DNA of 39,528 nt from assembly GCA_002633005.1 (NCBI GenBank), contig NMRA01001054.1:1-39528 (forward strand), read 5' to 3'. Every line of letters begins with the position of its first letter. The stretch's first letter is position 1. The notes under the pieces are model-generated. The model was not told the DNA's origin. It worked only from the letters and a program-made list of their open reading frames with translations, and did no database searches. The position numbers and the translations under genes are program-made. The stretch comes from Phoronis australis. Its lineage: Eukaryota; Animalia; Phoronida. Positions 1 through 23,405 of the stretch are shown piece by piece.

Positions 1-2199
1 ACATGGATGTGAGTTCGGGAAAATCGACAATCCAAACCGCGACTAGCAGACGACCATGACTAGCAGACGGCATACTTGAAGGAAGTAAGACCTGGTAACA
101 CACCAGGTGCCGCAAGTGAACAGTGACATCACGGCTTGTGTGTACGATCACAGATTTCGTGCATTGAGAATATACGAGTCGGTGGTCCACCTACTAAAAA
201 TAGCCTATGGTCACTTAGCATTTAGTACATTTGCCGTGGCACTAACAGATAGACTCTTGCCATTTGAACAACCAAAATCCCATCGTTCACAGTTTTGGCC
301 AGTTTCTGCTACAATTATACATTGTCACAGATGACAAAAATAAATGAAAGCTTTGTTCACATTTTTGGTGACAGCACATTAAAGGCCAAGTGTGGTGCCA
401 AAATGACTATTTTTACATCTAAAATACATTTATTGATAAAAAACTCAAAATACCGTGTCATAGCATACCCCAGTCGGTAATTAAGTAGGCCTTCGACAAT
501 ACGAAACGCCATCACGAACCCCATTTAGCGATAAAAAAAACTTGAGACGGCGCTCGCACCAATCGAAGTCTATGACATCATCGTTACCACGAATTTGGCT
601 TTTACCGTGTCTCCACAGTATTGAAGTCAGCAATGACTGGCCATTTAATTTAGTGCAAAATACGTGGAAAATCAAGGAAACACATTAATTTTTCAGTTCA
701 TGTCAGTTAATATTAAAATTAATCAAAATCACTACCTTTAGAATTTTTATTTAATTATTTAGCACACATTCTAATACGGGGCGGTATGGGAATCCCCGGG
801 AGTGTGACAGGTGTCGTCGAAACAGCCGGAAAAACAAAACGCTTAGTCTGAATTGTTATCAGCAATTTCCCAATGTTTATTATAAAGTGTAGTTTGTTTG
901 ATACGAAAACTTTGATGTTAGTAACTTTCCATTCATGTCTTTTTGAAGCCGAAGGTGTGAACGCTGCGCGATTCCAATACGGACGGCTCTCCAGTGTGTG
1001 TTCCGTATGGGTATAGAAGATGACAGGCCATTTAATTTGGTGCAAAATAATTAGAAACGTTAGGCTTACAGCACATATCAGCATGATCTTTTCGTACAAT
1101 GCAACTAAGTATATTCAAATTCATTGGAAATTTTATATTAGCAGCTCAATTTTCAAAATAAGTCACCTTGAAATGCTGCAACCCGTAATCGGTCAAGCTA
1201 AAAAAAATTGAAATTTAATAGCAACAGAACATTGTGCGTGTCTCTAATAAATTAAAACTACGTTCAAATAAAATCTGTATTGCATGAAAACATACCCAGT
1301 CATAAGAATTTGTAATCAATTGAATGTTTTAAATTCAGTATCAGAATTCCGTTAGTCCTACGGGAACGACTCAAATCAGACAGAATATTCCGGATTTGGG
1401 CTGGATTCCCTATACTCTGGGCCGGAACAGTAACACGAAATGTCGAAGTACACACTGCAGATTTTTTGTAGCCAACCAGCTAGCTGTTTGAAGGCTATCA
1501 CCAAAATACAGCTAGGTAACACTGTGACTTGAGCTCTGTTTTACCATAGACCATAGACTGTAGTCTATCACGGAATTTCATAGGCCCACCTACAGATCAG
1601 GTATGAGTTGTGTTAGTCAGCTCGTGAAACTTATATCGCAGAGCCAACGACCGAAGACAGGGGTGCATGCAAAATCTGGGAGACAATTCGGACACTCACC
1701 TTGCCCATTCAGTGCCGTCGTTTAAGGGAAGAACAATCTAATAAACGTCATTTTCTAGCATTTCTCTTGGCCTTTTGAGTTTTCTAACAAAGAAAGTCTG
1801 TTGTCTTTTTGAAACAGTACCCTCGTGAAACGCGCACGTGCCAAGCTAAAATCTTGCGACTACTTTTGGGACATGATAACAGCTTCGCAGCAGTAAAGTT
1901 TGTTCTAAATTCGGTTTGTTGGTCTTAAAAATGCTAATAACTTGTAACGAAATGAGACCAGTTCCGACAATTCGTTGTGACAGTACGCAACCTCGTGGCA
2001 GCAAAGAACAGTTGATAGAAGAATAAACCGGGGGGAGAAGAAACTGTTCAGGTCAGGTGACGTAATCGTCAAACGCAGACTCCCAAGACTGCACTTCAAT
2101 TTTAGCAGTAGATGAGCGGTAGGCCTAGAACGATAATTCTTCCAACACCGGTAAATAATTTGGTTTACTCCAAGAGCGGTGCAGCTTTTAATGACGCTA

Positions 2200-2445
2200 T
2201 TTCTGCATCAGATTTTATTTAGTCCTTTTTACCCACATCGACACGAAGCTGTAGATTTTGTATACAGCTTTGCACCAAGCCTAAATCAGATCTTGCCGAT
2301 CGGGGAAGTTTGTCGCCAGGCCTTGTCGTGGATACGGATCTATTCCACGTATGGCACACGACGTGATTGGTGGGGAAGTTGTGCAAATGTATCCCATTGC
2401 CGCTGACTTTGCTACACCCGCACACCACGCAAAGAGGCCTTTTAG
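2200..2445 (-). pseudogene. Degenerate THAP zinc-finger domain, probably a DNA-transposon remnant
   Basis: ORF 2219..2485(-) reads CVVCGCSKVSGNGIHLHNFPTNHVVCHTWNRSV, matching the THAP N-half (C-x4-C, LHxFP, W). The CxxHF part is disrupted, and IKSDA after the stop resembles the LKxDAVP box. Confidence 0.6.
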
Positions 2446-2756
2446 CCCAGAGATCGACAAGTGCAGAGCGTCCAAGAAATGGCACTCAGTTGTTACGCAA
2501 TGGGCTTCCCAGTAAATTCATGGCCACGCTGATGTCATATGAACCACTTTACGCTGATTGGTTGAGATTTTTTCTGGGGCGCTCGAAGGGGCTACGAATT
2601 ATGAGCGGTGTAATTTGCGTTGCAATTAATTACTTTCCGTGGTATGTAAGAAGCAAAAACAATATTTTTTACGAACACTTTATACATGGATTTCTGGTGC
2701 CAAAAAGGTGTTTTAGCCGCTGGACGCTGTCTTTAACGGTACTGACGCTAACTTAC

Positions 2757-2990
2757 CCTCTGAACACTGTCCATAATTACTTCCAATTATGATACCATAA
2801 CTTCCATTTAATTGCATACTAGGTAAAGTTGGACACTTACCATCGGAACAATATTGAACACGTTCACAGTTCTTCCCGGCTCTGGTGGCAGCACAAACAC
2901 ACTGGTAATGCGCGATCCCATCGACACATGTTCCCCCAGCCTGGCATGGGTCTGATGCACACTCGTTGATATTCTGTTCACAATTGGGAC
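2757..2990 (-). CDS. LDLa/EGF/mucin gene, exon H: end of EGF4 plus calcium-binding-type EGF5 (alternative donor would end it at 2841)
   Basis: CAG acceptor (AG at 2992-2991), phase 1. Reads GPNCEQNINECASDPCQAGGTCVDGIAHYQCVCAATRAGKNCERVQYCSD. GTAAGT donors at 2840-2835 and 2756-2751, both phase 1. Joins the upstream exon as [13 protein letters not shown]. Confidence 0.9.
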
Positions 2991-3818
2991 CTGTTGTCAA
3001 ACAACATAGCATAAGGATACTCATAAAGCTTTGTTCAAGCTGGTCAATGCCGCATGAGAAAATTCAATTTCGGCTTGAAATCCTGCATCCCAAATTTTAG
3101 GGACTTCCCAAACTAAAGACTGATGTATTACAAATGAAAAGCGCACCACAAAATGAATGACACATGCCACAGTACAACTAAGTCCTAACATGTTCGTTTT
3201 CATGGCAGTAACACGACTGATAATATTACAACACAACTGCAATGCACCACTGGACAAAAGACAAATAGATTTCACACAAGGTTCCTGAAACAGTCAGCCA
3301 CTGAGCACCTGCTGCACGTGAATAACCTTTCAACATAAAGCATACGACAATTCTATCACCAAAATTTCAAAACGCACGACCCCTCAAAGTGCTCCACCCT
3401 ATTCCAAACAAAACCCACAAGTGGGACAAAAGAATAAAAAGTGACACAAAAAACTACAAAAATAATTTGAGGTATCACTCATGGCCACATAACACACACC
3501 TCACAAATTTTCACACTGAAACGCCTATGCCAATCCTTCACTTATTGCGTGCTAAAATGTTTGCCAAGGCTGAGTACCTTTTGCAAACAACTTGAAATCA
3601 AGCAAGTATTGTTTTCAAACATCTAGACACTACAATCCATGCTTGTAATAGACTGATGTTCTTAACTTTTGTGGAGAAATTCAACAAAAAATAGAATTTC
3701 AGTTTGGTGGCTATACTGTGTTCTGAACACAAAATGAATTATGTAACCATACCATTCGTCCAACCCCATAATTACAGAGTATTACAACTTATATTTCCTA
3801 CAAAGAGCTCAATGTGTT

Positions 3819-4545
3819 ACGATACTTACTGGATAGGGTTGAGTAATTTACAGGGGATCATTTTCGACACAAAACTCGTTCTTAAAAACATTTAGGCATT
3901 TTAAACCTACTTCACATTCACATCGTCGCTATATGTTGTGTTTCTAACTAATTTGACCAAGCAATCACAGAGACAATGAATTAGCTTGCCANAGAATTAA
4001 CCATTATGTAATACACCCCCAACATGAGGAATTGTAGTAAACATGTTTGTTCACTATATCCTGTTATGATTCATGTATGTCACTATATAAGTGTATGATC
4101 GCATGGATTGTAACAGACTCAGTAGTATCAGCAGAAGAGTATGCAATAAAACTATTATCCTCCTTCAGACTAGTATTATCCTTGGACCGCGTTCTCGCAC
4201 TGTGTCGCGCATTCAACGTTCCTAACCGAACAGAATGCCTTTCACTGCTAGCACATCAACAACTTGTAAATATGAAAACAAAAAATCGGCCAATAGGTGA
4301 CCTTTGTACTAATGACGTACCTTGGGATTCACACAGTCCACAACATGCAGTGTTATTCGTCAACACCACGTCACGATACTTACTGGATACGGCTGAGTAA
4401 TTTACAGGGGATCATTTTCGACACAAAACTCGTTCTTAAAAACATTTGGGAATTTTCAACCTACTTCACATTCACATCGTCACTATATATTGTGTTTCTA
4501 ACTAATTTGACCAAGCAATCACAGAGACAAGGAATTAGCTTGTCA
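3819..4545 (+). repeat. 173-bp direct duplication (3819-3991 and 4373-4545)
   Basis: The copies align end to end with scattered substitutions. The first copy stops exactly at the single N at 3992. Confidence 0.85.
3993..4232 (+). mobile_element. Possible 3' part of a retrotransposon LTR
   Basis: TATATAAG (~4084), then AATAAA (~4145), ending ...CCGAACA. The 5' side is cut by an N; no TSD or partner LTR seen. Confidence 0.25.
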
Positions 4546-5010
4546 AGTTCCACTTTAAAAATATTATCTAAAAATTGTGTATAAAAATGAATGTTCTATT
4601 TGAGTATTGCACATGATGCGGCTGACATAAATTCAACGGTCCTGTCAGTAACCCAAATCGGCCTTCGTTTAACTTTGACTCCTGCACGTGATGTGGCAAC
4701 TCTTGGGTCTGAACTGATAGCACTACAAATCATGGCTTTCCACAACAAATACTAGTTTTGTCCAATTGAAGAATCTCTATGAAAATCAATGAAAACAAAG
4801 TAGCAAGGTAGACAGAACTTAACGTCTCGTGTAACTTTTTCTTATAATTTTCCTAACATGTTTTCCCATAGCACCACACAGCATTCCTTAATTGCTAGTC
4901 CGAATCATAGGTTACCTTGGAAACTGTTTCACAGGTCATTATGTGCAATTATGTGACAGAAATATCTGTACCAGCCACCAATTCATGAATCAAATTTCCG
5001 TTTTGAGCAC

Positions 5011-5038
5011 ACACGTCATACATGTGTCTCTATAAAAG
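5011..5038 (+). promoter_or_regulatory. Core promoter of the nested gene: bZIP (CRE/ATF-like) site and TATA box
   Basis: ACACGTCA at 5011-5018 and consensus TATAAAAG at 5031-5038, followed about 100 nt later by a donor AAG/GTAATG (GT at 5143-5144). Confidence 0.6.
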
Positions 5039-5059
5039 CGGCGTCAAAGAAACAGAACA

Positions 5060-5142
5060 TGTTAAAAATTTGTTGACGGCAGATTAACAAACAAGTCAGA
5101 CTAAGAGATTCTACCGTTGGGACCACCCACTAAAGTTCTAAG
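5060..5142 (+). other. Putative non-coding first exon of the nested gene (start approximate)
   Basis: Lies 25-30 nt after the TATA box and ends at the donor at 5143. A T-rich intron follows, with acceptor TTTTGTACTTCTAG ending at 5841. Contains a short uORF (MLKIC*). Confidence 0.5.
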
Positions 5143-5885
5143 GTAATGATTATTTTTTATTATTAAAAGCATCGACGTACACATCACCTGTACGTATCTT
5201 CAGCATTGAGATCACGGGTTAAGTTCTCGTTTCTATCTAACCTCCCAATTTTTTATTAATTTTTGTCTTAACTTTCTTTTGGTTAATTTGTTAGTAATGA
5301 AAACATGGTAAAGTACACTTCACCTTGTGCCATGTAATTCCATAATCTGACACATATTCAACAATTTTTTGTTGAAACAACATTCTGTAAAGGGGTGGAT
5401 GAGAAGCCCAAAATCAAGACTTTTCTGTAAATACTTGGCAACTTCCTAGCATGAAGAGGCAGAAATACTCCAACAACCCAACTGACCCATTGATCTTTAT
5501 ACGGGTAACGCGGGATGTCAAACCCACGAAGGATTGTGGGAAACCGATCTACCGAAGTGCATTTCCAGTATTTGAAGATACCCGATCAGTAGAGCTCACT
5601 TCACAGGTAGCATTTCTACCTGACAGAACTGTCCCAGATACATTAAAGAAATGAGTTAAGGAACCGTTCACAAAAACCACAATTTTCAGGTGAAATAGTT
5701 TACTTGATGAGTGCCACTAAACCAGCAAACTCCACAATGTTGCTGTAGATGGCATTCATACACCAGCAACCTCCTTGCTTTAGTTAGTTTAATGCCTTCA
5801 TGACCTTGTAGCCAGTAACTGTACTCATTTTGTACTTCTAGAAGGTGAACAAACACAGAGATTGCCACAGCAGAAGAGAACAAGT

Positions 5886-6473
5886 ATGTCTACAGACAGC
5901 GTATCAGTGCTTAACTTTAGAACAGAGAGCAAGATGACCAGTCCAGACATGAGCCCAATGAGCTTCGATTACAGTAATTTTGTAGCTATTGCAGATGACA
6001 GGTTATGGGACAAATCAGCACAGAGTATTGGTTTCGGGAGACACGAAACACCGTATCCCAAAGAGCGGAAAACCAGCAATGAGACTGGCATTGTTCTATC
6101 ACGAGAGCGGAAAATAAGTGACATTAGCGGGCTAGCGATTGCCGAAGCAGTGAAAAACACCCAAGCAGATCATGTGCGAAAAGCGTGGGAAGACATTTTC
6201 CCAGTAACTGATGCGAAAAGGGGAAAAGTACAGCGCATGAGTGTCATCTGCACTTCTCACAATGGCAACCGACACCAGACAGCTGATTACATGAGGGAGA
6301 CAAAGCCAGGTGTTAAAGTGCACGTTTCAAATAGGACTAAAATAAGCATGGCGTCAAGGGACAAGGGGGAACGATCGAAGACAGTGACATTCTCACAGAA
6401 CTTGACAACGGCATACAGCTACCCATTCCAGCAAGACAGTCAGAAGCGGACAAAGGTGTGCTGTATTCTTTGA
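5886..6473 (+). CDS. Uncharacterised ~195-aa low-complexity protein with a C-terminal CaaX motif (KRTKVCCIL); nested antisense gene
   Basis: Long intact ORF (track 5862..6473, first ATG at 5886) just after a splice acceptor at 5841. Ends in basic residues plus CCIL-stop, with AATAAA at 6658-6663. The start codon could lie in an upstream exon. Confidence 0.75.
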   Translation: MSTDSVSVLNFRTESKMTSPDMSPMSFDYSNFVAIADDRLWDKSAQSIGFGRHETPYPKERKTSNETGIVLSRERKISDISGLAIAEAVKNTQADHVRKAWEDIFPVTDAKRGKVQRMSVICTSHNGNRHQTADYMRETKPGVKVHVSNRTKISMASRDKGERSKTVTFSQNLTTAYSYPFQQDSQKRTKVCCIL

Positions 6474-6657
6474 TATCTGACTCGGAACATTATTGTGCAA
6501 AACAGTGGGAAAACGTGAACACAGTATGGTCGAACAGTGAAATTTGTAGGCAAATAGACATTTTTGATAAATTGTTACTAGCCAGTGCAGCAGTCAGCCA
6601 CCAACACATGGTGTAATTCTGAGCGTATTGAGTTTTAAAGTGTAGAAGCCGTAGAAA

Positions 6658-6663
6658 AATAAA
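6658..6663 (+). terminator. Polyadenylation signal of the nested gene
   Basis: First AATAAA after the stop, 185 nt downstream, with a GT-rich tract (CTGTTGTGTTT) at about 6703-6713. Confidence 0.55.
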
Positions 6664-6759
6664 GAATTGAAAAACAGGAAGTCACACACTCTTCCGAACC
6701 AACTGTTGTGTTTATACAATGCAATGTTCTCTGTGGGTGCAGTCTTGGAGATTCCACTA

Positions 6760-7325
6760 TCTCGGTTCTAACTCTTGCCACAACTTGCAACTTTCACAAA
6801 AATACACTTGATAAATTTCACAAAGATCTTACAGAGGGTTTGGGACATACAGCCACAGATGCAAAAAACAAACTGTCACTAGGGGACGCCACAGTAGTCC
6901 GACCCATCCAAAAATAACTAATATGCTATTCATAATTACAATGATCCTCTTAGTGGTTTGGCCAAGAGAAAGCCAGACTCGAAAACAGTGAAAATGGTAG
7001 ATAGGTGGGTAAAATACTTCAAATCCATAAAAATGGAAGGTAACGTTGTCTCTCAGCCAGATAACTATTTGAAAATCCATTAAGGAACTCCGAAGACACA
7101 GTGGCAAAAAATAAACATGCCACTAGAGGGCTCGGCCATAATTCGATCTGTCCCAAAATTTGCCCATGCCTACCCATCTATGATAAGAACAGACTTGCAC
7201 ACTTCCTGTACATCTATCCAGAGAGTTTGCAGATACAGCAGCATACACTGGATGCCAGACAAGACTCCAGACGGACAAGGACGACGCCATAATACACTCA
7301 CATATCAATACATGGGCACATAAAC
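6760..7325 (+). mobile_element. Non-autonomous Helentron/DINE-like element with internal degenerate tandem units (same family as 11885-13447)
   Basis: Units contain CACTAG.GG and AAATTTCACAAAGATC motifs. A GGAC/AGAC microsatellite-like tract and a decayed 3' end (CATAATAC...CATAAA) follow. Confidence 0.5.
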
Positions 7326-7823
7326 TCTATGTTCTTATTGTTAACACGGTCAATCCTAAAACATTTGGAGAAAGTTTGAAAACTCCTTACAAAGTGTACT
7401 ACCAGCAGCTGCGACAAAATTAATGCTTTATGTGTCTGAGTTACACAACGACATCGGGGAAAGACCGTTGACTTCAAAACACAAAATCCAGTTTACTAGA
7501 TATTGAGAAAGTATCTTATTTCTTATTTGAATAATCCTTTTGACATTCCACGCAGGAACAAATGGGGCCCTAGCAGGTGAAAGTACCAGCTTTGTGCAAA
7601 ATCTTCAGAACAGAATTTAGTATCTTTTTAACTGACCAACAGACCAAACACAAGTCATCTCTAAGTTGACCAATGTCACGACTGTGATGAGACTGCCATC
7701 AATACATGGGAACAAGAGACCACACCCATCCTCACTACTAGACCTTTGACTTCAATTTACCCGAAATAAGAACAAGGTCAAAGGTTTGCCTATCAACCCG
7801 CTTATTTGAAACACAAATTATAC

Positions 7824-7983
7824 CTTGATATCCCGGCTGGCATGCACACTGATAGCCATTCACGACATCGACGCATGACCCACCATTTTGGCAGGGGGAG
7901 CTGACGCACTCATCTAGTTGGACTTCACACTGTCTACCAGCAAAACCCCGTTGGCACCTACAGCGGAAACTTCCATCCTCAAT
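7824..7983 (-). CDS. LDLa/EGF/mucin gene, exon G: end of EGF3 plus calcium-binding-type EGF4
   Basis: TAG acceptor (7985-7984) and GTATAA donor (7823); 160 nt, phase 0 to 1. Reads [54 protein letters not shown]. Absent from the ORF track. Confidence 0.93.
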
Positions 7984-9108
7984 CTACAACAACGGATTAT
8001 TCTGTAGCAATGTCAATGAAATCAACAAGACACCTCCTGCTCTTGCTGATACATCCAACAGTCTCACAGCACTCAACATGAAATTTGAATATTCTAATCA
8101 ACAGAAAAGGTTATTTGTAAAAGTGTCGCCATTTGAGGAAAACCCTTCCAACTGGACGTGTTACAAGGATGGGAAATATCTACCTAAATTTTTAATGATC
8201 AATGAAAATGAATAGATTTCAGGGGGTCTCTGGTTTGATCCCTGGTCAGGGTATAAATCTTTTCGGAAGCTGTCTTGATGGACTTATCAAAGGCCTTTGA
8301 CATCATTTAACCATCTCCACAGTAATGTACTCCTTAACAAGAACACAATGTGAATTTACAGAAGCGTGCTTTAGTATCTGATTTTGAAGGAAAAGAAGCA
8401 TGGTAATTTTATGGGAAACGGTAAAATCTCACCAATTAAGGTTACACGTACCACTATTTCACAAAAAAAACATTAAAAACATTGGCGCTGACTATGGAAA
8501 ATCCCAGACACACTTTCTCTATGAATTTTTGCAGAAGTTTTAATACAGAAAACTTGGAGAATGCTGGTGAAAGGATTTTTCCCAATCAATGTACCTTAGT
8601 TTTAAAAACAACACTTTTGCCAAAAAGGCATGATCACGTAACCACAAAAATGGTACAGTGTTGTGGATGACATGATTAGATTTTTCTCTGTCAATTCCTA
8701 GTTTCAGAAAATGTATTACTTTGTGAATTGACGCGTCAGTTACTTACTAATAATAAATATTTCAAGAAGGCAAAATTTTAATTAGAGATACGCATAACCT
8801 TAAGGCCACAATATGGCCGACAGGTGAACTAACACAGAATGAAGGCTCCTATCAGTCTTAAGTTGTATACCATGATACATACCATCAGACAGTGTTTTGA
8901 AAAAGTGAAGGCATTCACAACTACAAGTTAGAAGCTTTTGAAATCAAAAAAAACGCTAATTTTGACAATTATTTTAGTCCAAAAATGGTGAAACGTTACC
9001 ATTTCCATCCCAGAATGCAACACCAGAAAAACGTTCCGATGAGTGCAATCGGTGGCCTTTTTAGCAAACAGCTACATGTAGTTACTGTATTGATAGGAAA
9101 TTACTTAC

Positions 9109-9185
9109 ATAACAGTTACCGGAGTTCTGACACGGCAGCAACGAACATGGATTTGTTAGCTGACTACAGGTTGAGCCACTGTAAC
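9109..9185 (-). CDS. LDLa/EGF/mucin gene, exon F: end of EGF2 and start of EGF3
   Basis: TTTCTTAG acceptor and GTAAGT donor (9108-9103); 77 nt, phase 1 to 0. Reads GYSGSTCSQLTNPCSLLPCQNSGNCY, completing the EGF cysteine patterns on both sides. Confidence 0.92.
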
Positions 9186-9566
9186 CTAAGAAATGGATAT
9201 AAAGTGGTCTGTTTAGTTAAACAAAATAAACAGCAATAAGTGTGACTAAAACACATAGAATGCTAAACTACAAGTGTTATGGGTGAACGCCACTAACTTA
9301 GGCAACTGCGTGTCAAATAAATAATTTTGCGTGGCTGAAGTTTAATATACTTATGCCACGTATTAAAACTTTTAAAAAGATTTAATCCAAGTTGTTTCAC
9401 TAACTCCCATGCAAATAAAGCTAGTCACGTGACCGTACAATAATTGTTACACAGACACCTGACAAAGTTATTGCGTGGGCATATCGAAACGTGTCGTATC
9501 AAGTTTATTTTGATGTTTTATGGGCACAAATATCAGGGATCACGTACTGGAGTTTTCAGTTATTCC

Positions 9567-9735
9567 AGCAAGGAAACCAACCATACTGTATTCGACAAAA
9601 AAAGCTTTAAACTGGTAATGAACCCGCGTTCTGTCAAAGAGGCGAAACTTTGATTTCGACTACTCACCACTATAAAATTGGTCTCCACTTCTTGTTCTTT
9701 ACTCAATTGAGAAGTGAGTTCAGGGTTTGCATGGA
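9567..9735 (+). repeat. Dispersed repeat with an inverted diverged copy at about 15503-15641
   Basis: CACCACTATAAAATTGGTCTCCACTT...TTACTCAATTGAGAAGTGA matches the reverse complement of 15503-15582. AAGGAAACCAA is also shared. Confidence 0.7.
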
Positions 9736-10467
9736 AATGACTGTCAGTCATTTCTCGATACCCTGCTCGACGCAAAAAACGACACGCCGTGAAAAGCTAA
9801 ATTCAGTTGAGGCTTTTGCAGCCCTGAAATCACCTCCAGTTTAACTAAGGATCAGTATGCAGTCTAAATCAAAGACCTTCGGGTGGTTTTTGTGATGGAA
9901 GGCGGGTTCATAGCAGCTTTATTAACACTTCCCTCAAAAATGTGCTGGCTTAACCGGCCAAATGTATCAAATAGAAATTAAATTCTGTCAAGTCTGTGTG
10001 GACAATAAGTTAAGGTTGCGTGCGACCTTGTCTGGGTATAGAGCCCAGTAAGTACAATATCATAGATTTTAAATCAGTAAAAGAGATTCTGTAGAGGTTG
10101 GTTTTTGGCATTATACTAGTCTGCTACTAATGCAGTCATGTATGTAATGTCTTTTTAGTAAAATTTAACACAAAAATTTCATAGTTAGCAAAAACAACAG
10201 TACCAATAACATAACTTTTGTTTGACACGAAATCTCAAAAATGCTGCTAAAATTTTCTAACCTATCATTTTGTGTTCGTTTTATGCACCTTTTGAATTTT
10301 TCCTGTTTTTGATAGCCCTTCATGCAAAACTGTAACATTTTAAAAACAATTTGTCTTGAAGAAGAGAGTATAAAGCATGATGATGTCTGAAAGTTCCACA
10401 CGAGTCCATACTGCCATGTCTGAGAGAAGCTGTTCTGAAATTTGAAGGTCCTAAATAACATCAATAC

Positions 10468-10594
10468 CTGGCTTGCAGCTACAATGATAGCCAGACCGAA
10501 GAGCTGTACAGACGCCGTTCAGACAAGGTGAGGGGTCGCAAACTCTGGGATTAATTGGTGGTAGACTTGTTGTAGTCACGGCAACAGAAATCAA
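10468..10594 (-). CDS. LDLa/EGF/mucin gene, exon E: end of stalk and most of EGF2
   Basis: CTTTTAG acceptor and CAG/GTATTG donor; 127 nt, phase 0 to 1. Reads LISVAVTTTSLPPINPRVCDPSPCLNGVCTALRSGYHCSCKPG. Confidence 0.92.
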
Positions 10595-11651
10595 CTAAAA
10601 GTAGCAAATTCACCAATATGAACATTTAGGACACAAGGGCTGCAACAAAAAACAAAACAGTGCAGGTTTCAGGCTAGGCTGTGAAAGTATAACAAATGCC
10701 ATAAAGTTCGTAATTTCAAACACGTACATTGGCTGATGTGAATTTCCATAAATGAAATTGCAGGATTTTTTGGTAAAATGTGACAATATAAATAAAAAAG
10801 TCTAGATGCCATTTTGTAAAGAAAAACAATAACAGTTAACCGACATTACCAAAATCAAAAGTTATTATTTATTACAAAGATTTACCACGAAAATCTATAG
10901 AAGACATCTTAAAAAATTTTCATAATTGGTGCTTAAATAATGCATTTAAGAGAATTTATGATAAGAGAAGTCAATTATGTACATTGAACGATTTGCAAAA
11001 AAACATGAAGGTTGACAACTATCTAATAAATAAATGTAATTTTTCCTTTGCTTGCCAATCTTCAAAAGATTTTTATAAATTTCACACTTTCTTGTTCTCA
11101 GATACCTTTTTGAACCTGTATAATGCCATGGCCTGTTTGTAAGCACTAACAATGTATTGGAATGGCTGCAACATTTTTGCAAAATAGTTACAAGTGTCAC
11201 CCAACTTTAACAATGTCTTTACTGCACTACATTAGGCTGAACCACAATTATGGCAATTACTAATTAATTATAATAAGCGCATTAAGCAGGTATTATGCAA
11301 TTAACTTAGCACAAATAGGACATTTTACTGCAATCAGTTATAAGTACATTAGGCAGATATATATACTGTCTTAGTCTGGTATGNCCTGAGTTTGAATGGC
11401 ACAGCGGTTTTCAGTAGAAAAGCCCACGGGCATTTCATCGGGTGGGCTTATCTACAGAAAATCCCGGTATTGGTTAGCACACTACGAGGCTATAGAACTA
11501 AGGGCCTATTTCCTTCCTGTATTAGGTCTCAGCAGGAGTGCGTGAAAGGAAGTGAACGTGCACAGATTGGTTAAAGCCCCTCATGAAAGAAAGGCCCAGG
11601 AGAGATGTTGTTACGGTCGTAGCAAAACTAATGAAATAAAATGAATGTTAC

Positions 11652-11804
11652 CTGAGTGGGCGACGTCTCTGGAGCAGAAGTTACCGACAGTGTTGTAGTG
11701 CCATCTGTTGTCATCAGTGAAGGATTAGAGGTGGCGAGTGGGTTCCCTGAGTTATCGGGGGGAGATGTAATGTCGATATTAGCAGATGCGCTGGCAAGCA
11801 AGGT
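11652..11804 (-). CDS. LDLa/EGF/mucin gene, exon D: Ser/Thr/Pro-rich stalk
   Basis: TTTGTAG acceptor and CAG/GTAACA donor; 153 nt, phase 0-0. Reads TLLASASANIDITSPPDNSGNPLATSNPSLMTTDGTTTLSVTSAPETSPTQ. Confidence 0.82.
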
Positions 11805-11884
11805 CTACAAATAATGAAAGAATATTATATGCATGTAACTAAACAGTGGCACTAAAATACTAATGAGGCAGTATGTGAAATAGA

Positions 11885-13447
11885 TGCTCAAGAGGGCTTT
11901 TTATTGAAATGCGTCCGCGACAACAATGCAAAGAGTGTGCTTCTAGAGGTGTTAATTAGTATCAAAAATAGACACTAGGTGGTGCAGAAAATGTCAAATC
12001 CATCCCAAAATGGATAGATGCTATCGCCATCATAACAGAAATTTGTTTACCACATTTCAATAAAAACTGTCACAAAACTCAGATACAGAATGCAAAAACT
12101 AAAATTGACACTAGGAGGTACAGCAGTAACTAAAACCGTCCAAAAGCTGTAAGTAGCTGTAGTCACATTGATAATTCTTGCAAAATTTCACAAAGACTCT
12201 TCAAAGAAGTGAGGAGATATGGCCGAGGAAGCGTCACAGTTGTCAAATCTGTCCACAAATCAACGTCTTCTTATCAGGAACAAAAACGCGCTAGAAAATA
12301 AAAATGGCCACTAGGTGATGCAAAAGTACATCAAATCCATACAAAAATGGAAGACTATTATGGTCATCTCCTTAATAGAAACTTTTTTTCTGATTATCAC
12401 AAAAAAACAAATCAATGAACTCCGAAAATACTGACTGAGGCAAACGTAAACAACTAAAACTGCCACTAGGCGACACAGTCAGTGGTAGTCGAAAGGGTCT
12501 GAAACACATCATAAAATGTTGTCAGCTCCATAGGAACACGTCTGCCAAATTTCACAAGGATCCTAAAAAAGGTTGAGGAGACACAGCTGCACATAAAAAA
12601 AACCACTAAGGGGCGCCAAAGTAATGAAACCCATCTGAATATCAACGTCAACCGTAGTGTTCTCATCAGGAACGCATCTGCCTAATTTTCACAATGATCC
12701 TCCAAGTAGTTTGGCGGATAGAAAGGCAGACGCAAAAAATGGATTCGAAACTGCTAAAAATTCCCACTAGGAGGCGTACAATACAAAAAATCTATCTGAA
12801 AATGGAAAGGCATTGTCAAGAAACCTATTTGCAAGTTTCATGAAAATCCATCACTGATTTCCGAAGATACACAGTAAAACGTAACTAGAGGCACACCAAT
12901 TATTGTATTGGGCTGAAACTCGTCACCATCTCTTATCAACTCCATAGAAACACATCTGCCAAATTTCACAAAGTTCCTGCAAAGTGTAAAGGAGACACAG
13001 CCATAGATACAAAATGAAAGAAAATGTCCACTGGGGCGGCAAAGTACTCGAACACACCCAAAAATCAACATCAATTGTGGTATCCTCATCAGAAACACAC
13101 CTGCCAATTTTCATAATGATCCTTCCAGTGGTTTGACAGATAAGAAAGGTGGACACCAAAAATGAACTTGAAAATTTAAAAAACGGACACTAGCTGGATC
13201 GTCAAAGACATCAGAAAATGTAGAGGTGTCATCGCCTTCATAACAGAAATCTATTTGTCAAATTCAAGNGTCCGATTTGTCCGAAAGTCGGCGTCATCCG
13301 TCGTCAGCTTCATAGGAACACACCTACCCAATCTCATTTAGATCATGTAAAGGGTTTAGGAGACACAGCAGCGGATGCCGGATGCCTTGATGTCCAGACA
13401 GTGATGATGGCAATATACACCTGCATAAAAATATGCAGGTGCATAAA
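11885..13447 (+). mobile_element. Non-autonomous Helentron/DINE-like element with about 9 degenerate 120-200-bp internal units and a 3' stem-loop
   Basis: Recurring CCACTAGG.GGC / AACACATCTGCCAAATTTCACAA units and a GGATGCC-type microsatellite-like tract (13370-13398). Perfect 10-bp hairpin CACCTGCATA-AAAA-TATGCAGGTG at 13418-13441. The family call rests on structure only, and the 5' boundary is approximate. Confidence 0.6.
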
Positions 13448-13466
13448 TGCATATACATTGACTCAC

Positions 13467-13658
13467 ATTCTCAATGCTCGTTTTCCCACCAGAGGTCACC
13501 ACTCTGCTGTCAGTAATTACATCTGATTGGGTGGTTGCTGCTGCAGTTGTGCCAACAGAGACCTCTGTGGTGGCTGGTTCATGTGATTCTGTTGTTACAC
13601 GAGCTTGTGTTGTAGATTCAGCACTTGGTGATGAAGTAACTGTTGCTGACTCTTGGTT
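13467..13658 (-). CDS. LDLa/EGF/mucin gene, exon C: Ser/Thr-rich stalk
   Basis: TTTTCCTTAG acceptor and GTGAGT donor (13466-13461); 192 nt, phase 0-0. Reads NQESATVTSSPSAESTTQARVTTESHEPATTEVSVGTTAAATTQSDVITDSRVVTSGGKTSIEN. The + ORF 13474..13662 is its antisense shadow. Confidence 0.88.
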
Positions 13659-14239
13659 CTAAGGAAAATGATGTATTTTAACATCAACACATGCTGCAAA
13701 TCTAACAACAAATAGAGACCAAAAACATCTAGAATGAATATATTCCACATTCACTTAGTAATTATCCAACAAAGCAAAAGGAACATAGAAACATTTTTTT
13801 ATTTTTCAAGTACATCAGATAAATGCCACTACTCCCAATTCTGTTAAGGCTATAGTCAGCCTTACATCGACAAGTAAAAGAATTAAAGTAAGATAAAATA
13901 AGAAATTAGAAATATTTTCTTATGTCAAAAATAACACCTATGAACTTTAATCCAACCACAGCATAACCACAGAAGTCTAGATGTCATTGAGTTAACTTGC
14001 CTTATTTCACAGCTAATTGACTTGTCACTAAATCAATACTTAAACTGCTGACACTCGCCATTGTGTGAAATGGGATGTCCCAAAGGAACAGCCACATTAC
14101 CAACGAATATAACTTAAATGCAATACACCACTCAACGAGGAGACAAGCAGATAATAACATAACACGTCTTCGGTAACCTTTGACAACAGTGTCTCCACTT
14201 CAACACATAGTTCAACACGGTGATGTTCACCCCACCTAC

Positions 14240-14418
14240 CGTAGTTAACCGTTCGGTTGTCTTGTCCAGTGTAGTGGCTGAAGCTTTAAACTGGCAGTTA
14301 GTTCCACTGGTGCCAGCTGGACACGTGCACATATAGTAGGCAACGGTGATCCTGTCACGACGACTGAACGCTTCACACGAACCGCCATTCAGACATGGTT
14401 GACTGTGGCAGGAGTCGA
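14240..14418 (-). CDS. LDLa/EGF/mucin gene, exon B: EGF1
   Basis: CTTTTTCAG acceptor and GTAGGT donor; 179 nt, phase 1 to 0. Reads DSCHSQPCLNGGSCEAFSRRDRITVAYYMCTCPAGTSGTNCQFKASATTLDKTTERLTT. Confidence 0.92.
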
Positions 14419-15122
14419 CTGAAAAAGATGCAAAGCTAGATAGCGTTTGAGGGAATAAGTCCACAGACTTCCAAAATTAATGGTGTGTAATAACAAGTGT
14501 CAGCTGGGCGGAGCCTAAACGCAATTACTACCTATAATGATAAGAATAATGACCAGTATTCCATAAGAGGTCAGTGACCACTCGCCACTATGGCAAAAGA
14601 ATTACACTTCATTCACAATTACCATATAAATATTAAAGAAGCATTTAAATGATAAAAATGGACTCGAAACACTTCCTTATAGTCGGTTTCTGCCAATAGG
14701 AATGTCCACTTTCCGATATAGCAGGGACGTGATGAAATATGCCTCGTCGCAGGATAGCATTTCGGAAACTGTGTCAAGCATTTAAGGATTCAGTTTTAAG
14801 GTAAACAGTTATCATTAATAATTTACTAAAGACCATTTTCTAAGTGTATAAAATGATAGTCATTTGTCTATGGGAGAAATCATGAATGCAATGTCTTGCC
14901 AAAATAAACAGAATTTTTAAGTATTTTAAAACAATCTACGAGATTTTCAGAACAAGCAAACCGTTACCGAAAATACACACATAGCCATACTTCTTGAAAA
15001 TTTTCAGAAAATAAGTTCATCGGCATACTTTTGGTTGACCCTGTTTTGGGAAATTACCGGTGCTGCAGTAATTTTAAAAATTTGACAGTGAATAAGAAGG
15101 AAACGTCAACTTAAATTCTTAC

Positions 15123-15290
15123 CAGGCTGAAGTCCCATGACACTGTTACATGTAGCGTTAGACTCATCTGAGCCTCCAGGGCAGTCAACCTTACCATCAC
15201 ACACCCAGTCACACATTGTGCAATCAGTGACAACAGGGTGACCACAGGACATCTGGCAGATGAACGAGTTGTCTGGACATCCATCCATAA
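15123..15290 (-). CDS. LDLa/EGF/mucin gene, exon A: LDL-receptor class A module (8 Cys)
   Basis: TTCTTCCACTAG acceptor and GTAAGA donor; 168 nt, phase 1-1. Contains the LDLa signature WVCDGKVDCPGGSDE. Confidence 0.9.
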
Positions 15291-15770
15291 CTAGTGGAAG
15301 AAAAGAGATCTATTTCTAGACACTATTAAATTGGTAAAAAATGAAGTTAAAACTTTATATTTATGCCATTTACCATGGTCTTATCTTGCTCCTTGCCGAG
15401 TCAAGAAAAACTGATATCTGAGCTCCAGAAGAACTATCAGTTTGTTATTTTTTTAGATCAAGGTAAAAAAAAATTACAAGCTTGGTCTAAGGAAATAACA
15501 GCTCTTTGCAAGACTAAAATCATTTCTCATCTGAGTAAGGAACAAGTTGAGACCAATTTTGTAGTGGTAAGTGGTCTAAAGCAGGTTTATTGCCATTTCA
15601 AGTACTTCTAAAACAGACCGTAACTGAATTGGTTTCCTTTACCCCCACCAGTAGTAGTGAGTCAGGATAATTCAACTATGGGACACAATAGACACCATGT
15701 ACTATTAATACAATTCCAATCATAGTGATATATTATTACATAAATTATTACATACATTGACACTACAAAT

Positions 15771-16450: not shown

Positions 16451-16511
16451 ATTTCTCCCTCACTGGTGTATACAAGAGGAATGTTCTAACACATAATTCA
16501 AATATAACTAT

Positions 16512-17052
16512 ATCAATTGAAATCCTATCTTCCTCTCCCAGCTCTCAGGTTAATATATAATTCATTTCTCCCCACTCATTTAAACTACAGCATTGCAACT
16601 TGGGGTTTTAGCAACACTAAGAAACTCCAGACAGTCCAGAAGAGAATCCTTAAGAATATATCCACACTCTGCCAATATGTAATGAACTTCACCTCCCTCT
16701 ATTTCAAGACATCTTTAAAATCTCACAACAAAATTTTACTTCAGCTTCCTAAGTATTTTTACACTAACAAAAACTTCTGTAGTAACCCCATCCAATATAA
16801 ACCAACCAGACACATTAAAACTCCTACATACCAAAATCAATACTTAGCTGCTATTCCGACAATACAACCCAAAATTTCAATTCCCCGCCCAACAAATTGT
16901 CATCAAGAGCCTATATCAGATTTGAAATTCCTCCCCTTGTAAACAACAACGAAATACCAGTCTGTGCTTTAAATATAATAAAAACACTCTTTGCAAGCAT
17001 TCTCCAGGTCCTAAACCAATTCTATAATTAGCAACTATTGATCCAATCTGTC
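16512..17052 (+). mobile_element. Decayed 3' fragment of the same LINE ORF2 found downstream
   Basis: Paralogous to about 18400-18972 (YLPLPAL.LIYNS...HLNY.IATWGF.NTKKLQT), with several small deletions and frameshifts. Confidence 0.9.
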
Positions 17053-18972
17053 ATAAATAAAACATGGGATACGATAAAGACAGTTATGAACAACGGCGTT
17101 CGAACAAAAAATGACACCCCAGAATGTCNACAGTTATGAACAACGGCGTTCGAACAAACAATGGCACCCCAGACTGTCTCTTACGTTCAGATAACACTAA
17201 AACCAGTGACCTACCCGAAATGGCAAGTTTTTTTAACACCTACTTTACCCAAATCGGTCCATCCCTTTCTGAATCAATAACAATGATAAAAAACAAGAAT
17301 TTCAAAGACTATCTTCCCACGCCAAACAAATTTAAGTTCTCTTTCAAACCAATTAATAATAAACATGTACTAGATATTATAAGAGACATGGACGCAAAAA
17401 ATAGCACTGGTCATGACAATTTATCATCTAAAATTATCAAAATAAGCAGTCCTTTTATAATTGAACCTCTCACGACCATCATCAACCAGTGCTTGCACAC
17501 TGGTATATTTCCAGATGCTCTAAAGATTGCTAAAGTGATCCCAGTTTTTAAACAACATGGATTGGACCCAGAGCACCCGGGCAATTATAGACCCATTTCT
17601 ATTCTTCCAACAATCTCAAAAATTATAGAAAAAATTATCCATAATCAACTTTCAACTTTCCTAAATGAAAATGATATACTTAATAAGCATCAATATGGTT
17701 TCAGGAAATGTCACTCTACAGAACTTGCTTTGCTTGAACTTTTAGACCGCATTTGTTCCCATCTTGATAATGACATGAATCCCCTGGTCATCTTTCTAGA
17801 TCTCTCAAAAGCTTTTGACACAATAGACCACCAAATACTCTTGCAAAAGATAAATCACTATGGTATTACTGGAGTTGAATATTCACTGGTTAAAAGTTAA
17901 CTCTCAAACCGCACCCAATATGTTTCACTAAGTGATACAACATCCACTTGGTTACCAATATCTACCGGAGTTCCCCAAGGCTCTGTCCTTGGCCCACTTC
18001 TCTTCCCAGTTCACATAAATGATCTTTCGTTTTCTTCTCCCATGGACACACTTCTTTATGCTGACGACACTTGCCTCACCACACCTTACAAACTGACGGA
18101 ATCTTCCCAACACACTTTACAGCAATTAAACACCATCAACAACAACCTTAAATCTATTTCAAACTGGTTTTCTGTGAACAAACTTTCAATTAACACATCA
18201 AAAATAAATTAATGATCTTCCACTACCCCCAAAAGAAAATTGAAAAATGTATTATTCCCACCATTTATATAAATAGCAAAACAATACATCATGTGAACAG
18301 TTTTCCTTTCCTTGGTATTACTGTTGACAAAAACCTCTCATGGTCCCCCCACATTAACCTCATCTCAAACAAACTTAACAATCTCGGTGGACTCTTATAC
18401 AAATTGAAATTTTATCTTCCTCTTCCCGCTCTCAAGTTGATATATAATTCACTTGTCCTTCCACATTTAAACTATGGCATTGCAACTTGGGGTTTTGGCA
18501 ACACTAAGAAACTTCAGACAGCCCAGAAAAGAATCCTTAGGAATATATCAAATTCCAGTTATAACGCTCACTCTCTGCCCATATGTAAGGAACTTCGCCT
18601 CCCTCTAGTTCAAGACATCTTTAAAATCTCAACTGCAAAATTTTACTACAAATTCCTCAATAATCAGCTTCCTAAGTATTTTTACACTAACAACTTCTTT
18701 AGTAAACCCATTCAATATAAGCCAACCAGACACATTAAAACTCCAACATACCTGAATCACTACTCAGCTACTATACCGACAATACAACCCAAAATTTTAA
18801 TTCCTCCGTCCAACAAATTGTCATCAAGAGCCTGTATTAGATTTCAGATTCCTCGACTTATAAACAACAACGAAATACCAGTCTCTGCTCTAAATATAAT
18901 AAAAACGCATTCTTTGCAAGCATTCTCCAGGTTCTTAACCAATTTTATTATTAGCAACTACGATCCAGTTTG
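17053..18972 (+). mobile_element. 5'-truncated non-LTR retrotransposon (CR1/L2 group) ORF2 reverse transcriptase, pseudogenised
   Basis: Motifs NYRPISILP, QYGFR, FLDLSKAFDT, GVPQGSVLGPLLF, YADD (18057-18068) and FLGITVDKNLSW all lie in one frame, interrupted by TAA at 17898-17900 and 18209-18211. Runs into the N gap. Confidence 0.95.
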
Positions 18973-19518
18973 NNNNNNNNNNNNNNNNNNNNNNNNNNNN
19001 NNNNNNNNNNNNNNNNNNNNNNNNNNNNNNNNNNNNNNNNNNNNNNNNNNNNNNNNNNNNNNNNNNNNNNNNNNNNNNNNNNNNNNNNNNNNNNNNNNNN
19101 NNNNNNNNNNNNNNNNNNNNNNNNNNNNNNNNNNNNNNNNNNNNNNNNNNNNNNNNNNNNNNNNNNNNNNNNNNNNNNNNNNNNNNNNNNNNNNNNNNNN
19201 NNNNNNNNNNNNNNNNNNNNNNNNNNNNNNNNNNNNNNNNNNNNNNNNNNNNNNNNNNNNNNNNNNNNNNNNNNNNNNNNNNNNNNNNNNNNNNNNNNNN
19301 NNNNNNNNNNNNNNNNNNNNNNNNNNNNNNNNNNNNNNNNNNNNNNNNNNNNNNNNNNNNNNNNNNNNNNNNNNNNNNNNNNNNNNNNNNNNNNNNNNNN
19401 NNNNNNNNNNNNNNNNNNNNNNNNNNNNNNNNNNNNNNNNNNNNNNNNNNNNNNNNNNNNNNNNNNNNNNNNNNNNNNNNNNNNNNNNNNNNNNNNNNNN
19501 NNNNNNNNNNNNNNNNNN
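18973..19518. other. Assembly gap (N run)
   Basis: 546 Ns; ORFs spanning it in the track are artefacts. Confidence 1.
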
Positions 19519-19934: not shown

Positions 19935-20254
19935 TTTTCTTTTATACAGAATTTGTTGAATACACGACACTTTTCATTTTTCACGGTCTTTATTCCGTTG
20001 CGTTCATACTTTCTGAACAAACTCTACTCTCTACTGAACATAGATACAGTAACTGACCTAGCGACATAATTAAAAAGACACACGATATTTCGAAACATAC
20101 TTGTGTGTGTCTTTTTAATTATGTCGCTAGGTCAGTTACTGTATCTATGTTCAGTAGAGAGTAGAGTTTTGTTCAGAAAGTATGAACGCAACGGAATAAA
20201 GACCGTGAAAAATGAAAAGTGTCGTGTATTCAACAAATTCTGTATAACAGAAAA
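19935..20254. repeat. Near-perfect long inverted repeat (149/150-bp arms, 21-bp spacer)
   Basis: Arms 19935-20083 and 20105-20254 are reverse complements, with one substitution and one 1-nt indel seen. Confidence 0.97.
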
Positions 20255-22360: not shown

Positions 22361-22639
22361 GATGCCAAAAACTTCTCCGGAATTTATATTACAGCTCTGG
22401 AATAGGCTTTTTTGCATTTCTGATTATCCTCTCACAAAGCTAGTACTGGAACATATTTACGTGTAGAAAGGACAATTAGTCAAAATATGGTTTTCTTATT
22501 TTACTAAGGTTGATCATATTGAAACATTTTATGAATGGTTATCCTGTGACTTGGAGAGAGCCAAAGTGAAAGTGATTGATCTTTCAGAGTCTGAATGGTA
22601 GGCTGAAATTCTGTTACACCCAAGCTATCCGTATCGTTT

Positions 22640-23373: not shown

Positions 23374-23404
<31 letters not shown>

Positions 23405-23405
23405 A
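22640..23405 (+). mobile_element. 3' fragment of a second LINE family (L2/CR1-group-like) with a (TAAA)n tail, nested in the THAP element
   Basis: The ORF2 C-terminus reads WGG...KVQVIQNRATRAILG...MYRCINGLAPAYLS, followed by a T-rich 3' UTR and (TAAA)n at 23374-23405. Confidence 0.85.

What the first reader, a model, noticed from the sequence alone, without database searches (positions are those of the whole stretch)
5011..6663. Complete antisense gene nested in the EGF gene intron, encoding an orphan-looking CaaX protein
Seen: inside intron 2991-7823, on the opposite strand, are a TATA box (5031), donor (5143), acceptor (5841), an intact ORF to 6473 and AATAAA (6658). The protein ends KRTKVCCIL. 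Established: CaaX ending in Leu is a geranylgeranyltransferase-I signal; CCIL is the RalA C-terminus, and CCaX tails can be both prenylated and palmitoylated; upstream basic residues aid membrane binding. The protein has no GTPase motifs or recognisable fold. Inference: an undescribed lipid-anchored, probably disordered signalling protein whose transcription must coexist with the host gene. This is the best candidate for new biology in the window.
Basis: partly seen in the sequence, partly recalled or inferred. Interest (0 to 1): 0.8.

Follow-up and report, generated by a model that had tools for sequence, protein, structure and literature searches.

The report
Orphan membrane anchor for phosphatase PP1
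Inside an intron of an invertebrate cell-surface-protein gene sits an opposite-strand, gene-shaped unit for a small protein with no known relatives, whose last 31 residues hold a lipid-anchor signal and a motif predicted to grip the phosphatase PP1, so it likely pins that enzyme to a membrane, although no RNA from it was seen in the samples checked.

Summary
In detail: TATA 5031, donor 5143, acceptor 5841, a 195-codon ORF (5886-6473) ending in CCIL, and AATAAA 6658. The host intron 2991-7823 is spliced in 9 RNA reads. Chance is unlikely: such an ORF appears in 4 of 2000 intron shuffles and a strict CaaX in 7 of 15,661 shuffled ORFs. No relative was found. No read from 3 RNA runs lies on either exon, so expression is unshown.

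A complex prediction puts residues 165-180 in the RVxF and ΦΦ sites of a fungal stand-in PP1: score 0.82, best control 0.01, partner pLDDT 45-48, possibly from memory of solved complexes.

Best reading (0.5): a minimal, disordered, geranylgeranylated PP1-targeting subunit that works like TIMAP but has no ankyrin repeats. The tail also resembles the cysteine plug of Inhibitor-3, which allows a bolder switch model (0.08). Nesting itself is ordinary in animals. The scan's earlier notes hold no look-alike.

The parts
5014..5078 (+). Three CRE-like half-sites (5014, 5042, 5074) around the TATA box; weak lead for a cAMP-inducible promoter
   Evidence: 59 half-sites in the window; three-in-70-nt clusters start at 3 places (4313, 5014, 31973). 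The CRE label is recalled, not tested.
5031..5037 (+). TATA box
   Evidence: sequence
5060..5142 (+). Predicted non-coding exon 1 (start inferred about 30 nt after the TATA box)
   Evidence: no RNA reads
5143..5841 (+). Predicted 699-nt GT-AG intron in the 5' UTR
   Evidence: junction not seen in RNA
5886..6473 (+). ORF of 195 aa (P0001), Ser/Thr- and Lys/Arg-rich, no confident fold, no relative found
   Evidence: searches
6066..6119 (+). Two PKA-like sites (residues 61-64 and 75-78); not enriched over chance
   Evidence: two or more such sites in 27% of shuffles
6378..6392 (+). RVxF PP1-docking motif, K165-T-V-T-F169
   Evidence: consensus from PMC10731240; docked in the RVxF pocket
6399..6449 (+). 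Extension after the RVxF motif (residues 172-188): predicted phi-phi strand at 172-180; F181 and R188 fall in the same register as human PNUTS F413 and R420
   Evidence: one search places 172-180 on PP1; register; residues 181-188 were not confidently placed
6444..6470 (+). Basic stretch plus CCIL CaaX box (C192 predicted geranylgeranylated, C193 possibly palmitoylated); also resembles the Lys-Cys plug of Inhibitor-3
   Evidence: Pfam PPI_Ypi1 E=0.14, below cut-off
6658..6663 (+). AATAAA poly(A) signal, with a T/G-rich stretch at about 6704-6713
2991..7823 (-). Host intron between two EGF-domain exons
   Evidence: 9 junction reads; EGF Pfam hits on both flanking exons

Best explanation
The unit is likely a real, tightly restricted two-exon gene whose unfolded 195-residue product is predicted to be lipid-anchored through its CCIL tail and to hold protein phosphatase 1 (PP1) next to the membrane through an RVxF motif 23 residues upstream. 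Shown: the gene-shaped signals, the ORF, both motifs and the spliced host intron. Predicted: residues 165-170 fill PP1's RVxF pocket and 172-180 run along its phi-phi strand. Inferred from known pathways: GGTase-I adds geranylgeranyl to C192, with or without palmitate on C193; the basic residues 187-190 help bind acidic lipids; phosphorylation of T168 in the motif would release PP1; the first 160 residues would recruit substrates or be substrates. The gene lies in the host intron as a passenger.
For: Gene anatomy beyond chance: ORF in 4 of 2000 shuffles, strict CaaX in 7 of 15,661 ORFs; flanking signals at 0.15% of 6618 positions. RVxF matches the published consensus (PMC10731240) and has Thr at x, the usual phospho-switch position (PMC10066265). 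In 100,000 shuffles of the protein a strict RVxF arose in 3.9%, RVxF followed by aromatic-x-aromatic in 0.33%, and the PNUTS register (aromatic at +12, Arg at +19) in 0.16%; the last two patterns were defined after seeing the sequence. Complex prediction with a fungal PP1 (P0044; the pocket residues I169, L243, F257, R261, C291, F293 named are all kept): score 0.82, best of 3 controls 0.01; the mark was reached by 51 of 78 solved and 2 of 108 mismatched microbial pairs, and by 39 of 65 solved and 2 of 126 unrelated eukaryotic pairs; runs agree in at least 51% of contacts; partner pLDDT 45-48. The model was given 68 residues and placed only 165-170 and 172-180 confidently. Precedent for prenylated PP1 subunits: TIMAP.
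Against: No read on either exon in 35.1 million reads (about 18-19% of each of 3 runs) or in one contig set; upper bound about 0.09 RPKM pooled. No relative, so neither motif can be tested for conservation. A loose RVxF occurs in 32% of shuffles. The complex pass may come from memory of solved RVxF complexes; no control carried a decoy RVxF; the calibration did not cover disordered chains or peptides; the PP1 is a stand-in from a fungus. Codon bias is weak. Another 187-aa ATG ORF with no Pfam match exists in this window at 38472-39170, so long ORFs do arise here outside recognised genes.
Confidence: 0.5

Rival explanations
1. A real prenylated, disordered membrane adaptor in which the RVxF match is incidental and PP1 plays no part.
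For: The CaaX signal and gene anatomy stand without PP1. A loose RVxF appears in 32% of shuffles. The model may dock any RVxF from memory (caveat).
Against: The motif is of the strict type (3.9%) and is followed by a docked extension at 172-180.
Confidence: 0.2
2. A silent relic or a presence/absence variant: a once-functional gene or duplicated segment that is now unexpressed, or that the sampled animals lack.
For: Depth is zero in all 11 bins from 4601 to 6701 in 4 of 4 runs at 90% likeness, on both strands, while the neighbouring intron part 3073-3836 has host-direction reads in 4, 2 and 2 of its 4 bins in runs X1, X2 and X3. The block is flanked by repeats.
Against: ORF, splice sites, TATA, poly(A) signal and both protein motifs are all intact. 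Another host-intron bin, 10681-11214, is also empty. Host expression is very low, so empty intron bins are expected. No terminal inverted repeats enclose the block.
Confidence: 0.12
3. An Inhibitor-3-like PP1 inhibitor: after the RVxF motif the tail's K190 and two cysteines plug PP1's active site, and prenylation of C192 would switch this off while moving the complex to the membrane.
For: The only Pfam match of the last 35 residues is PPI_Ypi1 on the last 9 residues (E=0.14, 12.4 bits against a cut-off of 27). In Inhibitor-3, Lys59 positions Cys60-62 over the active site, and single Cys-to-Ser variants bind only about 2-fold weaker (PMC10066265). K190-V-C-C-I-L lines up with Lys59, the three cysteines, Ile63 and Tyr64.
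Against: Basic-plus-CC tails are typical of CaaX proteins, so the match can be coincidence. The spacing from the RVxF aromatic to the lysine is 21 here and 16 in Inhibitor-3, and the conserved 49-DNE-51 is missing. No Inhibitor-3 chain was among the 4 PDB matches at E<=10. The model routes the chain along the phi-phi site, not the Inhibitor-3 path.
Confidence: 0.08
4. Exon 5842-6473 is the last coding exon of a longer + strand gene whose other exons lie elsewhere, so the orphan look comes from searching a disordered tail alone.
For: The frame is open from the acceptor through 14 codons before the ATG.
Against: A TATA-donor pair lies 0.7-0.8 kb upstream in the same host intron and closes the frame with a stop. 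The search for longer relatives found none among 391 candidates (weak evidence by the tool's own note). No + strand coding exon is evident upstream in the window.
Confidence: 0.07
5. A chance arrangement of an ORF and short signals in intron DNA.
For: No RNA, no relatives, weak codon bias. The locus was picked from a genome-wide scan, so rare chance events are sampled.
Against: The product of the separate rates (ORF 0.002, strict CaaX 0.00045, ordered signals 0.0015) is about 1e-9 per intron-sized stretch, before the RVxF motif is counted. The criteria are post hoc, but the margin is large.
Confidence: 0.03

Closest known systems
TIMAP (PPP1R16B), a prenylated MYPT-family PP1 subunit; MYPT3/PPP1R16A is recalled as its paralogue
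   Same: RVxF motif plus C-terminal CaaX box that brings PP1 to the membrane; PKA sites (PMC10296329 passages; PMC10744335 passages).
   Different: TIMAP has its RVxF, a MyPhoNE motif and ankyrin repeats at the N-terminus. Here there is no ankyrin repeat or other Pfam domain, the protein is 195 aa, and the RVxF lies 23 residues from the lipid-bearing cysteine.
RVxF-phi-phi-Phe-Arg PP1 interactors: PNUTS (PPP1R10), neurabin/spinophilin, Phactr, PPP1R15
   Same: Human PNUTS 398-TVTW-401, F413 and R420 (PMC10731240) match T166-V-T-F169, F181 and R188 in register; the predicted contacts are the RVxF and phi-phi sites.
   Different: No sequence homology outside the motif string (searches list none of these chains). 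F181 and R188 were not confidently docked. I recall none of these proteins as prenylated (not searched one by one).
Inhibitor-3 / Ypi1 (PPP1R11; Pfam PF07491)
   Same: Small disordered protein; RVxF followed by basic residues, a lysine and a cysteine cluster then Ile (PMC10066265); weak Pfam match.
   Different: Five more residues between the motifs; DNE missing; two cysteines rather than three; the cluster ends the protein and forms a CaaX box, whereas Inhibitor-3 (126 aa) continues beyond it.
CCaX-tailed small GTPases (RalA CCIL; brain Cdc42 CCIF)
   Same: Tail type: basic stretch plus CCaX.
   Different: No GTPase domain; only the anchor is shared.
Nested intronic genes of animals
   Same: Own promoter, opposite strand, inside one host intron (PMC3325483, PMC8527503 passages).
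   Different: Nothing; this part is ordinary.

Membership tests
RVxF-type PP1-interacting proteins | RVxF consensus [K/R]-X0-1-[V/I/L]-X-[F/W] | tested here: met
   K165-F169, the only match in the protein (consensus)
RVxF-type PP1-interacting proteins | Motif lies in a disordered, accessible region | tested here: inconclusive
   pLDDT below 50 throughout, but a single-sequence model is low whether or not the protein folds; composition is polar
RVxF-type PP1-interacting proteins | phi-phi motif 5-8 residues after the RVxF motif | tested here: met
   Residues 172-180 contact PP1 residues 293-300 and 70-78 in the model; a prediction only
RVxF-type PP1-interacting proteins | Motif conserved in orthologues | tested here: inconclusive
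   No orthologue found
RVxF-type PP1-interacting proteins | Physical binding to PP1 that needs the V and F residues | not testable with these tools
   Needs a pull-down; one search supports but does not show binding
MYPT/TIMAP family (PPP1R12/16) | Ankyrin repeats after an N-terminal RVxF | tested here: not met
   No ankyrin match in Pfam at E<=10; RVxF is C-terminal
MYPT/TIMAP family (PPP1R12/16) | C-terminal CaaX box (TIMAP type) | tested here: met
   CCIL before the stop
Inhibitor-3/Ypi1 (PF07491) | Pfam domain above its cut-off | tested here: not met
   12.4 bits against 27, 9 of 57 positions
Inhibitor-3/Ypi1 (PF07491) | DNE residues and 16-residue spacing between the RVxF aromatic and the anchoring lysine | tested here: not met
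   Spacing 21, no DNE
CaaX (GGTase-I) proteins | Cys fourth from the end, final Leu, upstream basic residues | tested here: met
CaaX (GGTase-I) proteins | Prenylation shown biochemically | not testable with these tools
   bench test
Ras/Rho small GTPases | GTPase domain | tested here: not met
Nested intronic gene | Lies wholly within a spliced host intron | tested here: met
   Host junction in 9 reads
Nested intronic gene | Own transcript | tested here: inconclusive
   No reads in 3 samples of unknown tissue

The most novel reading that the evidence does not exclude
One nine-residue tail serves two exclusive jobs: unprenylated, its lysine and two cysteines plug PP1's active site as Inhibitor-3 does; once geranylgeranylated and trimmed, the plug is destroyed and the RVxF-bound PP1 becomes an active, membrane-tethered enzyme. 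Prenylation would then act as an on-switch for a phosphatase.
Probability: 0.08. Interest if true: 0.85.

Novelty: new variant of a known kind. Interest (0 to 1): 0.45.

Why it matters
Prenylated PP1 subunits are known from the ankyrin-repeat TIMAP type. Two full-text searches (RVxF+CaaX+PP1, 5 papers; RVxF+prenylation+membrane, 3 papers) listed no paper whose title or abstract opening describes a small, domain-free protein of this kind; most subscription journals are outside that library. If real, this is a minimal design in which a PP1 dock and a lipid anchor share 31 residues, and it shows how a lineage-specific gene can plug into a core pathway through two short motifs. It is cheap to test in cultured cells. 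Its weight is limited because it is one copy, with no transcript and no relative yet.

Tried and rejected
Whole genome: none is held for this window, so paralogues elsewhere could not be sought. Sequencing-run search: no RNA holder listed. Protein searches: 0 of 28 near-length candidates and 0 of 391 longer candidates at E<=1. The single hit among 1.84 billion representatives (P0002, E 1.1e-6) is a 607-aa tandem repeat whose score sums nine weak stretches; rejected. Pfam on the whole protein: two matches below cut-off, DAC E 0.082 and APC_u9 E 0.2; rejected. PDB sequence matches (a LuxR regulator E 0.28; AMA1 chains E 0.8-1.6): rejected as chance. ESM Atlas: best 0.83, unnamed clusters, low recognition. 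Metagenome and viral contigs: 63 and 5 pattern matches, none confirmed. Rfam: 0 matches in the window. Single-sequence fold: pLDDT 30, so no fold search was run. PKA-site enrichment: not significant (27%). Codon-position test: not significant overall (p=0.21). The small + direction depth in bin 5341-5874 (0.13 in X1, 0.2 in X2) disappears at 90% likeness and was not counted as expression. A scan of metagenomes for distant relatives sharing only the C-terminal motif pair was not done, so such relatives remain untested. The alignment of 45 PP1 sequences was not used by the complex predictor.

Full report
Context. The window is animal DNA, about 38% GC, rich in repeats. No whole genome is held. 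Earlier notes on other pieces of this genome call it likely a mollusc (unchecked AI notes); I did not test the taxon. A minus-strand host gene runs through the first 15.3 kb, with exons for an LDL-receptor class A module (15124-15288, Pfam E 1.2e-4, below cut-off), an EGF domain (14192-14419), two Ser/Thr-rich stretches (13491-13658, 11655-11804; no Pfam match) and further EGF domains (7825-7983, 2842-2988). A secreted or cell-surface protein is inferred from these domains.

Observation. The protein has 195 residues and ends KRTKVCCIL. Exon 1 is non-coding, since the join puts a stop in frame just before the junction; a five-codon upstream ORF starts at 5059, at about the inferred start site. 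The host intron 2991-7823 is spliced in 9 reads from 3 of 4 runs, all with the first mate on +, which fits a minus-strand host in a stranded library.

Chance. An ATG ORF of 195 aa or more arose in 4 of 2000 dinucleotide shuffles of the host intron and 0 of 150 shuffles of the window. A strict CaaX ended 7 of 15,661 shuffled ORFs (93 of 15,661 for a broad pattern). In the real window 3 of 378 ATG ORFs of 20 aa or more end in a broad CaaX, and the other two are 32 and 39 aa. An acceptor within 100 nt upstream, AATAAA within 250 nt after the stop and a TATA-plus-donor pair within 1.5 kb coincide at 0.15% of 6618 positions. These criteria were set after seeing the locus, and the same acceptor rule misses the host's own proven acceptor, so the numbers give a scale only. 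Codon-position bias is weak (p=0.21 overall; p=0.044 for purines at position 1). The stretch 4560-6750 has no copy elsewhere in the window (best BLASTN E 0.88). One caution: a 187-aa ATG ORF with no Pfam match lies at 38472-39170.

Expression. At 90% likeness, depth is zero in all 11 bins from 4601 to 6701 in all 4 runs. At 80%, bins 4807-5340 and 5875-6408 are still zero; bin 5341-5874 has depth 0.13 (X1) and 0.2 (X2), which vanishes at 90%. About 18-19% of each raw run was read, 35.1 million reads in all, giving an upper bound near 0.09 RPKM for a 927-nt message. The three raw runs come from one study and their tissue is unknown. The gene is therefore silent in these samples or absent from these animals. 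Host-direction intron reads exist at 3073-3836, which hints at absence, but bin 10681-11214 of another host intron is also empty, so the hint is weak.

Relatives. None was found: 0 of 28 near-length and 0 of 391 longer candidates; one hit among 1.84 billion representatives, which is a tandem-repeat artefact; no confirmed locus in metagenome or viral contigs; no Pfam family above cut-off; no meaningful PDB or Atlas match; the exact sequence is not in the 15-billion collection; no look-alike in earlier scan windows. These collections are mostly microbial and a disordered protein evolves fast, so this shows that no close relative is on hand, not that none exists. The protein is polar (40 Ser/Thr, 31 Lys/Arg, 22 Asp/Glu; GRAVY -0.73; no hydrophobic segment), and a single-sequence model has pLDDT 30.

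The missed motif. Residues 165-169 (KTVTF) are the only match to the RVxF consensus given in PMC10731240 (passages). That paper gives human PNUTS 398-TVTW-401, a Phe motif at F413, an Arg motif at R420, and a phi-phi motif five to eight residues after the RVxF. Here F181 and R188 fall at the same +12 and +19 offsets from F169, and A176-Y177 at +7/+8. In 100,000 shuffles a loose RVxF appears in 32%, a strict one (pattern recalled) in 3.9%, RVxF plus aromatic-x-aromatic in 0.33% and the PNUTS register in 0.16%; the last two are post hoc. The x position is Thr, where phosphorylation weakens PP1 binding (PMC10066265, passages).

Complex prediction. PP1 of this animal is not available, so a Mortierella PP1 was used (P0044; E about 1e-197 to PP1-beta in the PDB). 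It keeps the RVxF-pocket residues named, with L for I at 266. Folded with residues 128-195, it scored 0.82 (runs 0.82, 0.79, 0.83) against a best control of 0.01. The mark was reached by 51 of 78 solved and 2 of 108 mismatched microbial pairs, and by 39 of 65 solved and 2 of 126 unrelated eukaryotic pairs. Runs agree in at least 51% of contacts, and partner pLDDT is 45-48. Confident contacts involve partner residues 165-170 and 172-180; V167 and F169 touch PP1 residues 169, 243, 261 and 289-292, and 175-176 touch 294-295. This is the textbook geometry, so the pass may reflect likeness to solved complexes. No control held a decoy RVxF, and the calibration did not cover peptides or disordered chains. 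Residues 181-195 were not confidently placed, which says nothing either way.

Mechanism. Best reading (0.5): a TATA-driven, tissue- or signal-restricted gene makes a disordered protein. GGTase-I would modify C192, since a final Leu favours that enzyme, and C193 may be palmitoylated as in CCaX Cdc42 (PMC9868626, passages); CCIL is the RalA box (PMC6291162, passages). PP1 bound at 165-180 would then sit about two dozen residues from the bilayer. The N-terminal 160 residues, with two PKA-like sites that are not enriched over chance (27%), would supply partners or regulation. Three CRE-like half-sites surround the TATA box, but such clusters start at 3 places in the window, so cAMP induction is only a lead.

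Rivals. An adaptor with an incidental RVxF (0.2); a silent relic or presence/absence variant (0.12); an Inhibitor-3-like inhibitor or prenylation switch (0.08); the last exon of a longer gene (0.07); chance (0.03). The Inhibitor-3 idea rests on a sub-threshold Pfam match of the last nine residues (E 0.14) and on the published role of Lys59 and Cys60-62. Against it stand the longer spacing, the missing DNE and the phi-phi route in the model.

Comparison and novelty. It would work like TIMAP, which carries an RVxF, ankyrin repeats and a CaaX box (PMC10296329, PMC10744335, passages), but it is not a member of that family, since it has no ankyrin repeats. It fails membership of the Inhibitor-3 and GTPase families. 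Searches for RVxF with CaaX or prenylation listed 5 and 3 papers; from the listings, and passages of PMC10296329, none describes a small domain-free protein of this kind. Nesting is ordinary: 158 cases in human and almost 800 in Drosophila (PMC3325483), 2357 in a ctenophore (PMC8527503). All papers were seen as search listings and selected passages, none in full, and no supplements were opened; PMC12185105, PMC3507197 and PMC3654263 were read in passages for background only.

Verdict. The anatomy is confirmed, the gene is probably real (about 0.8), and its likeliest job is to anchor PP1 at a membrane. It is a new variant of a known kind, resting on one copy without transcript or orthologue. 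Interest 0.45.

Noticed in passing
window 19935-20254: A near-perfect long inverted repeat: arms of about 150 nt (87 nt at 99% plus 65 nt at 100%) around a 21-nt loop; a foldback element or hairpin-RNA source.
   Followed up: no
window 21334-24857: 31-nt inverted arms (97%) 3.46 kb apart enclose short frames at 21410-21676 and 22158-22466 with Cys/His spacing that recalls a THAP zinc finger; possibly a decayed DNA transposon. The second frame had no Pfam match at E<=0.01.
   Followed up: partly
window 16509-18973: A LINE-type reverse transcriptase (RVT_1, E 4e-18 and 3e-10) broken by stops, with a partial second copy of its 3' end at 16509-17037, next to an assembly gap.
   Followed up: partly
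window 1700-15291 (minus strand): Host gene with LDLa, EGF, two Ser/Thr-rich exons and more EGF domains; very low expression; only the 2991-7823 junction appeared in the joint tables shown. The donor of the 14192-14419 exon was not located.
   Followed up: partly
window 4601-6701: A 2.1-kb block with no read on either strand in 4 of 4 runs at 90% likeness, bounded by repeats; could be a presence/absence variant.
   Followed up: partly
window 38472-39170 (minus strand): A 187-aa ATG ORF overlapped by a 161-codon open frame on the + strand; no Pfam match.
   Followed up: partly
L002, L003, L004, L007, L009, L013, L015, L017, L023, L025, L027, L028, L029, L032, L035, L036, L037: 17 of 37 viral-contig loci, several from giant-virus bins, carry 303-351 aa ORFs with phosphatase signatures; the one checked (L013) is PP1-like, E 5.5e-127 to PP1-alpha.
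   Followed up: partly
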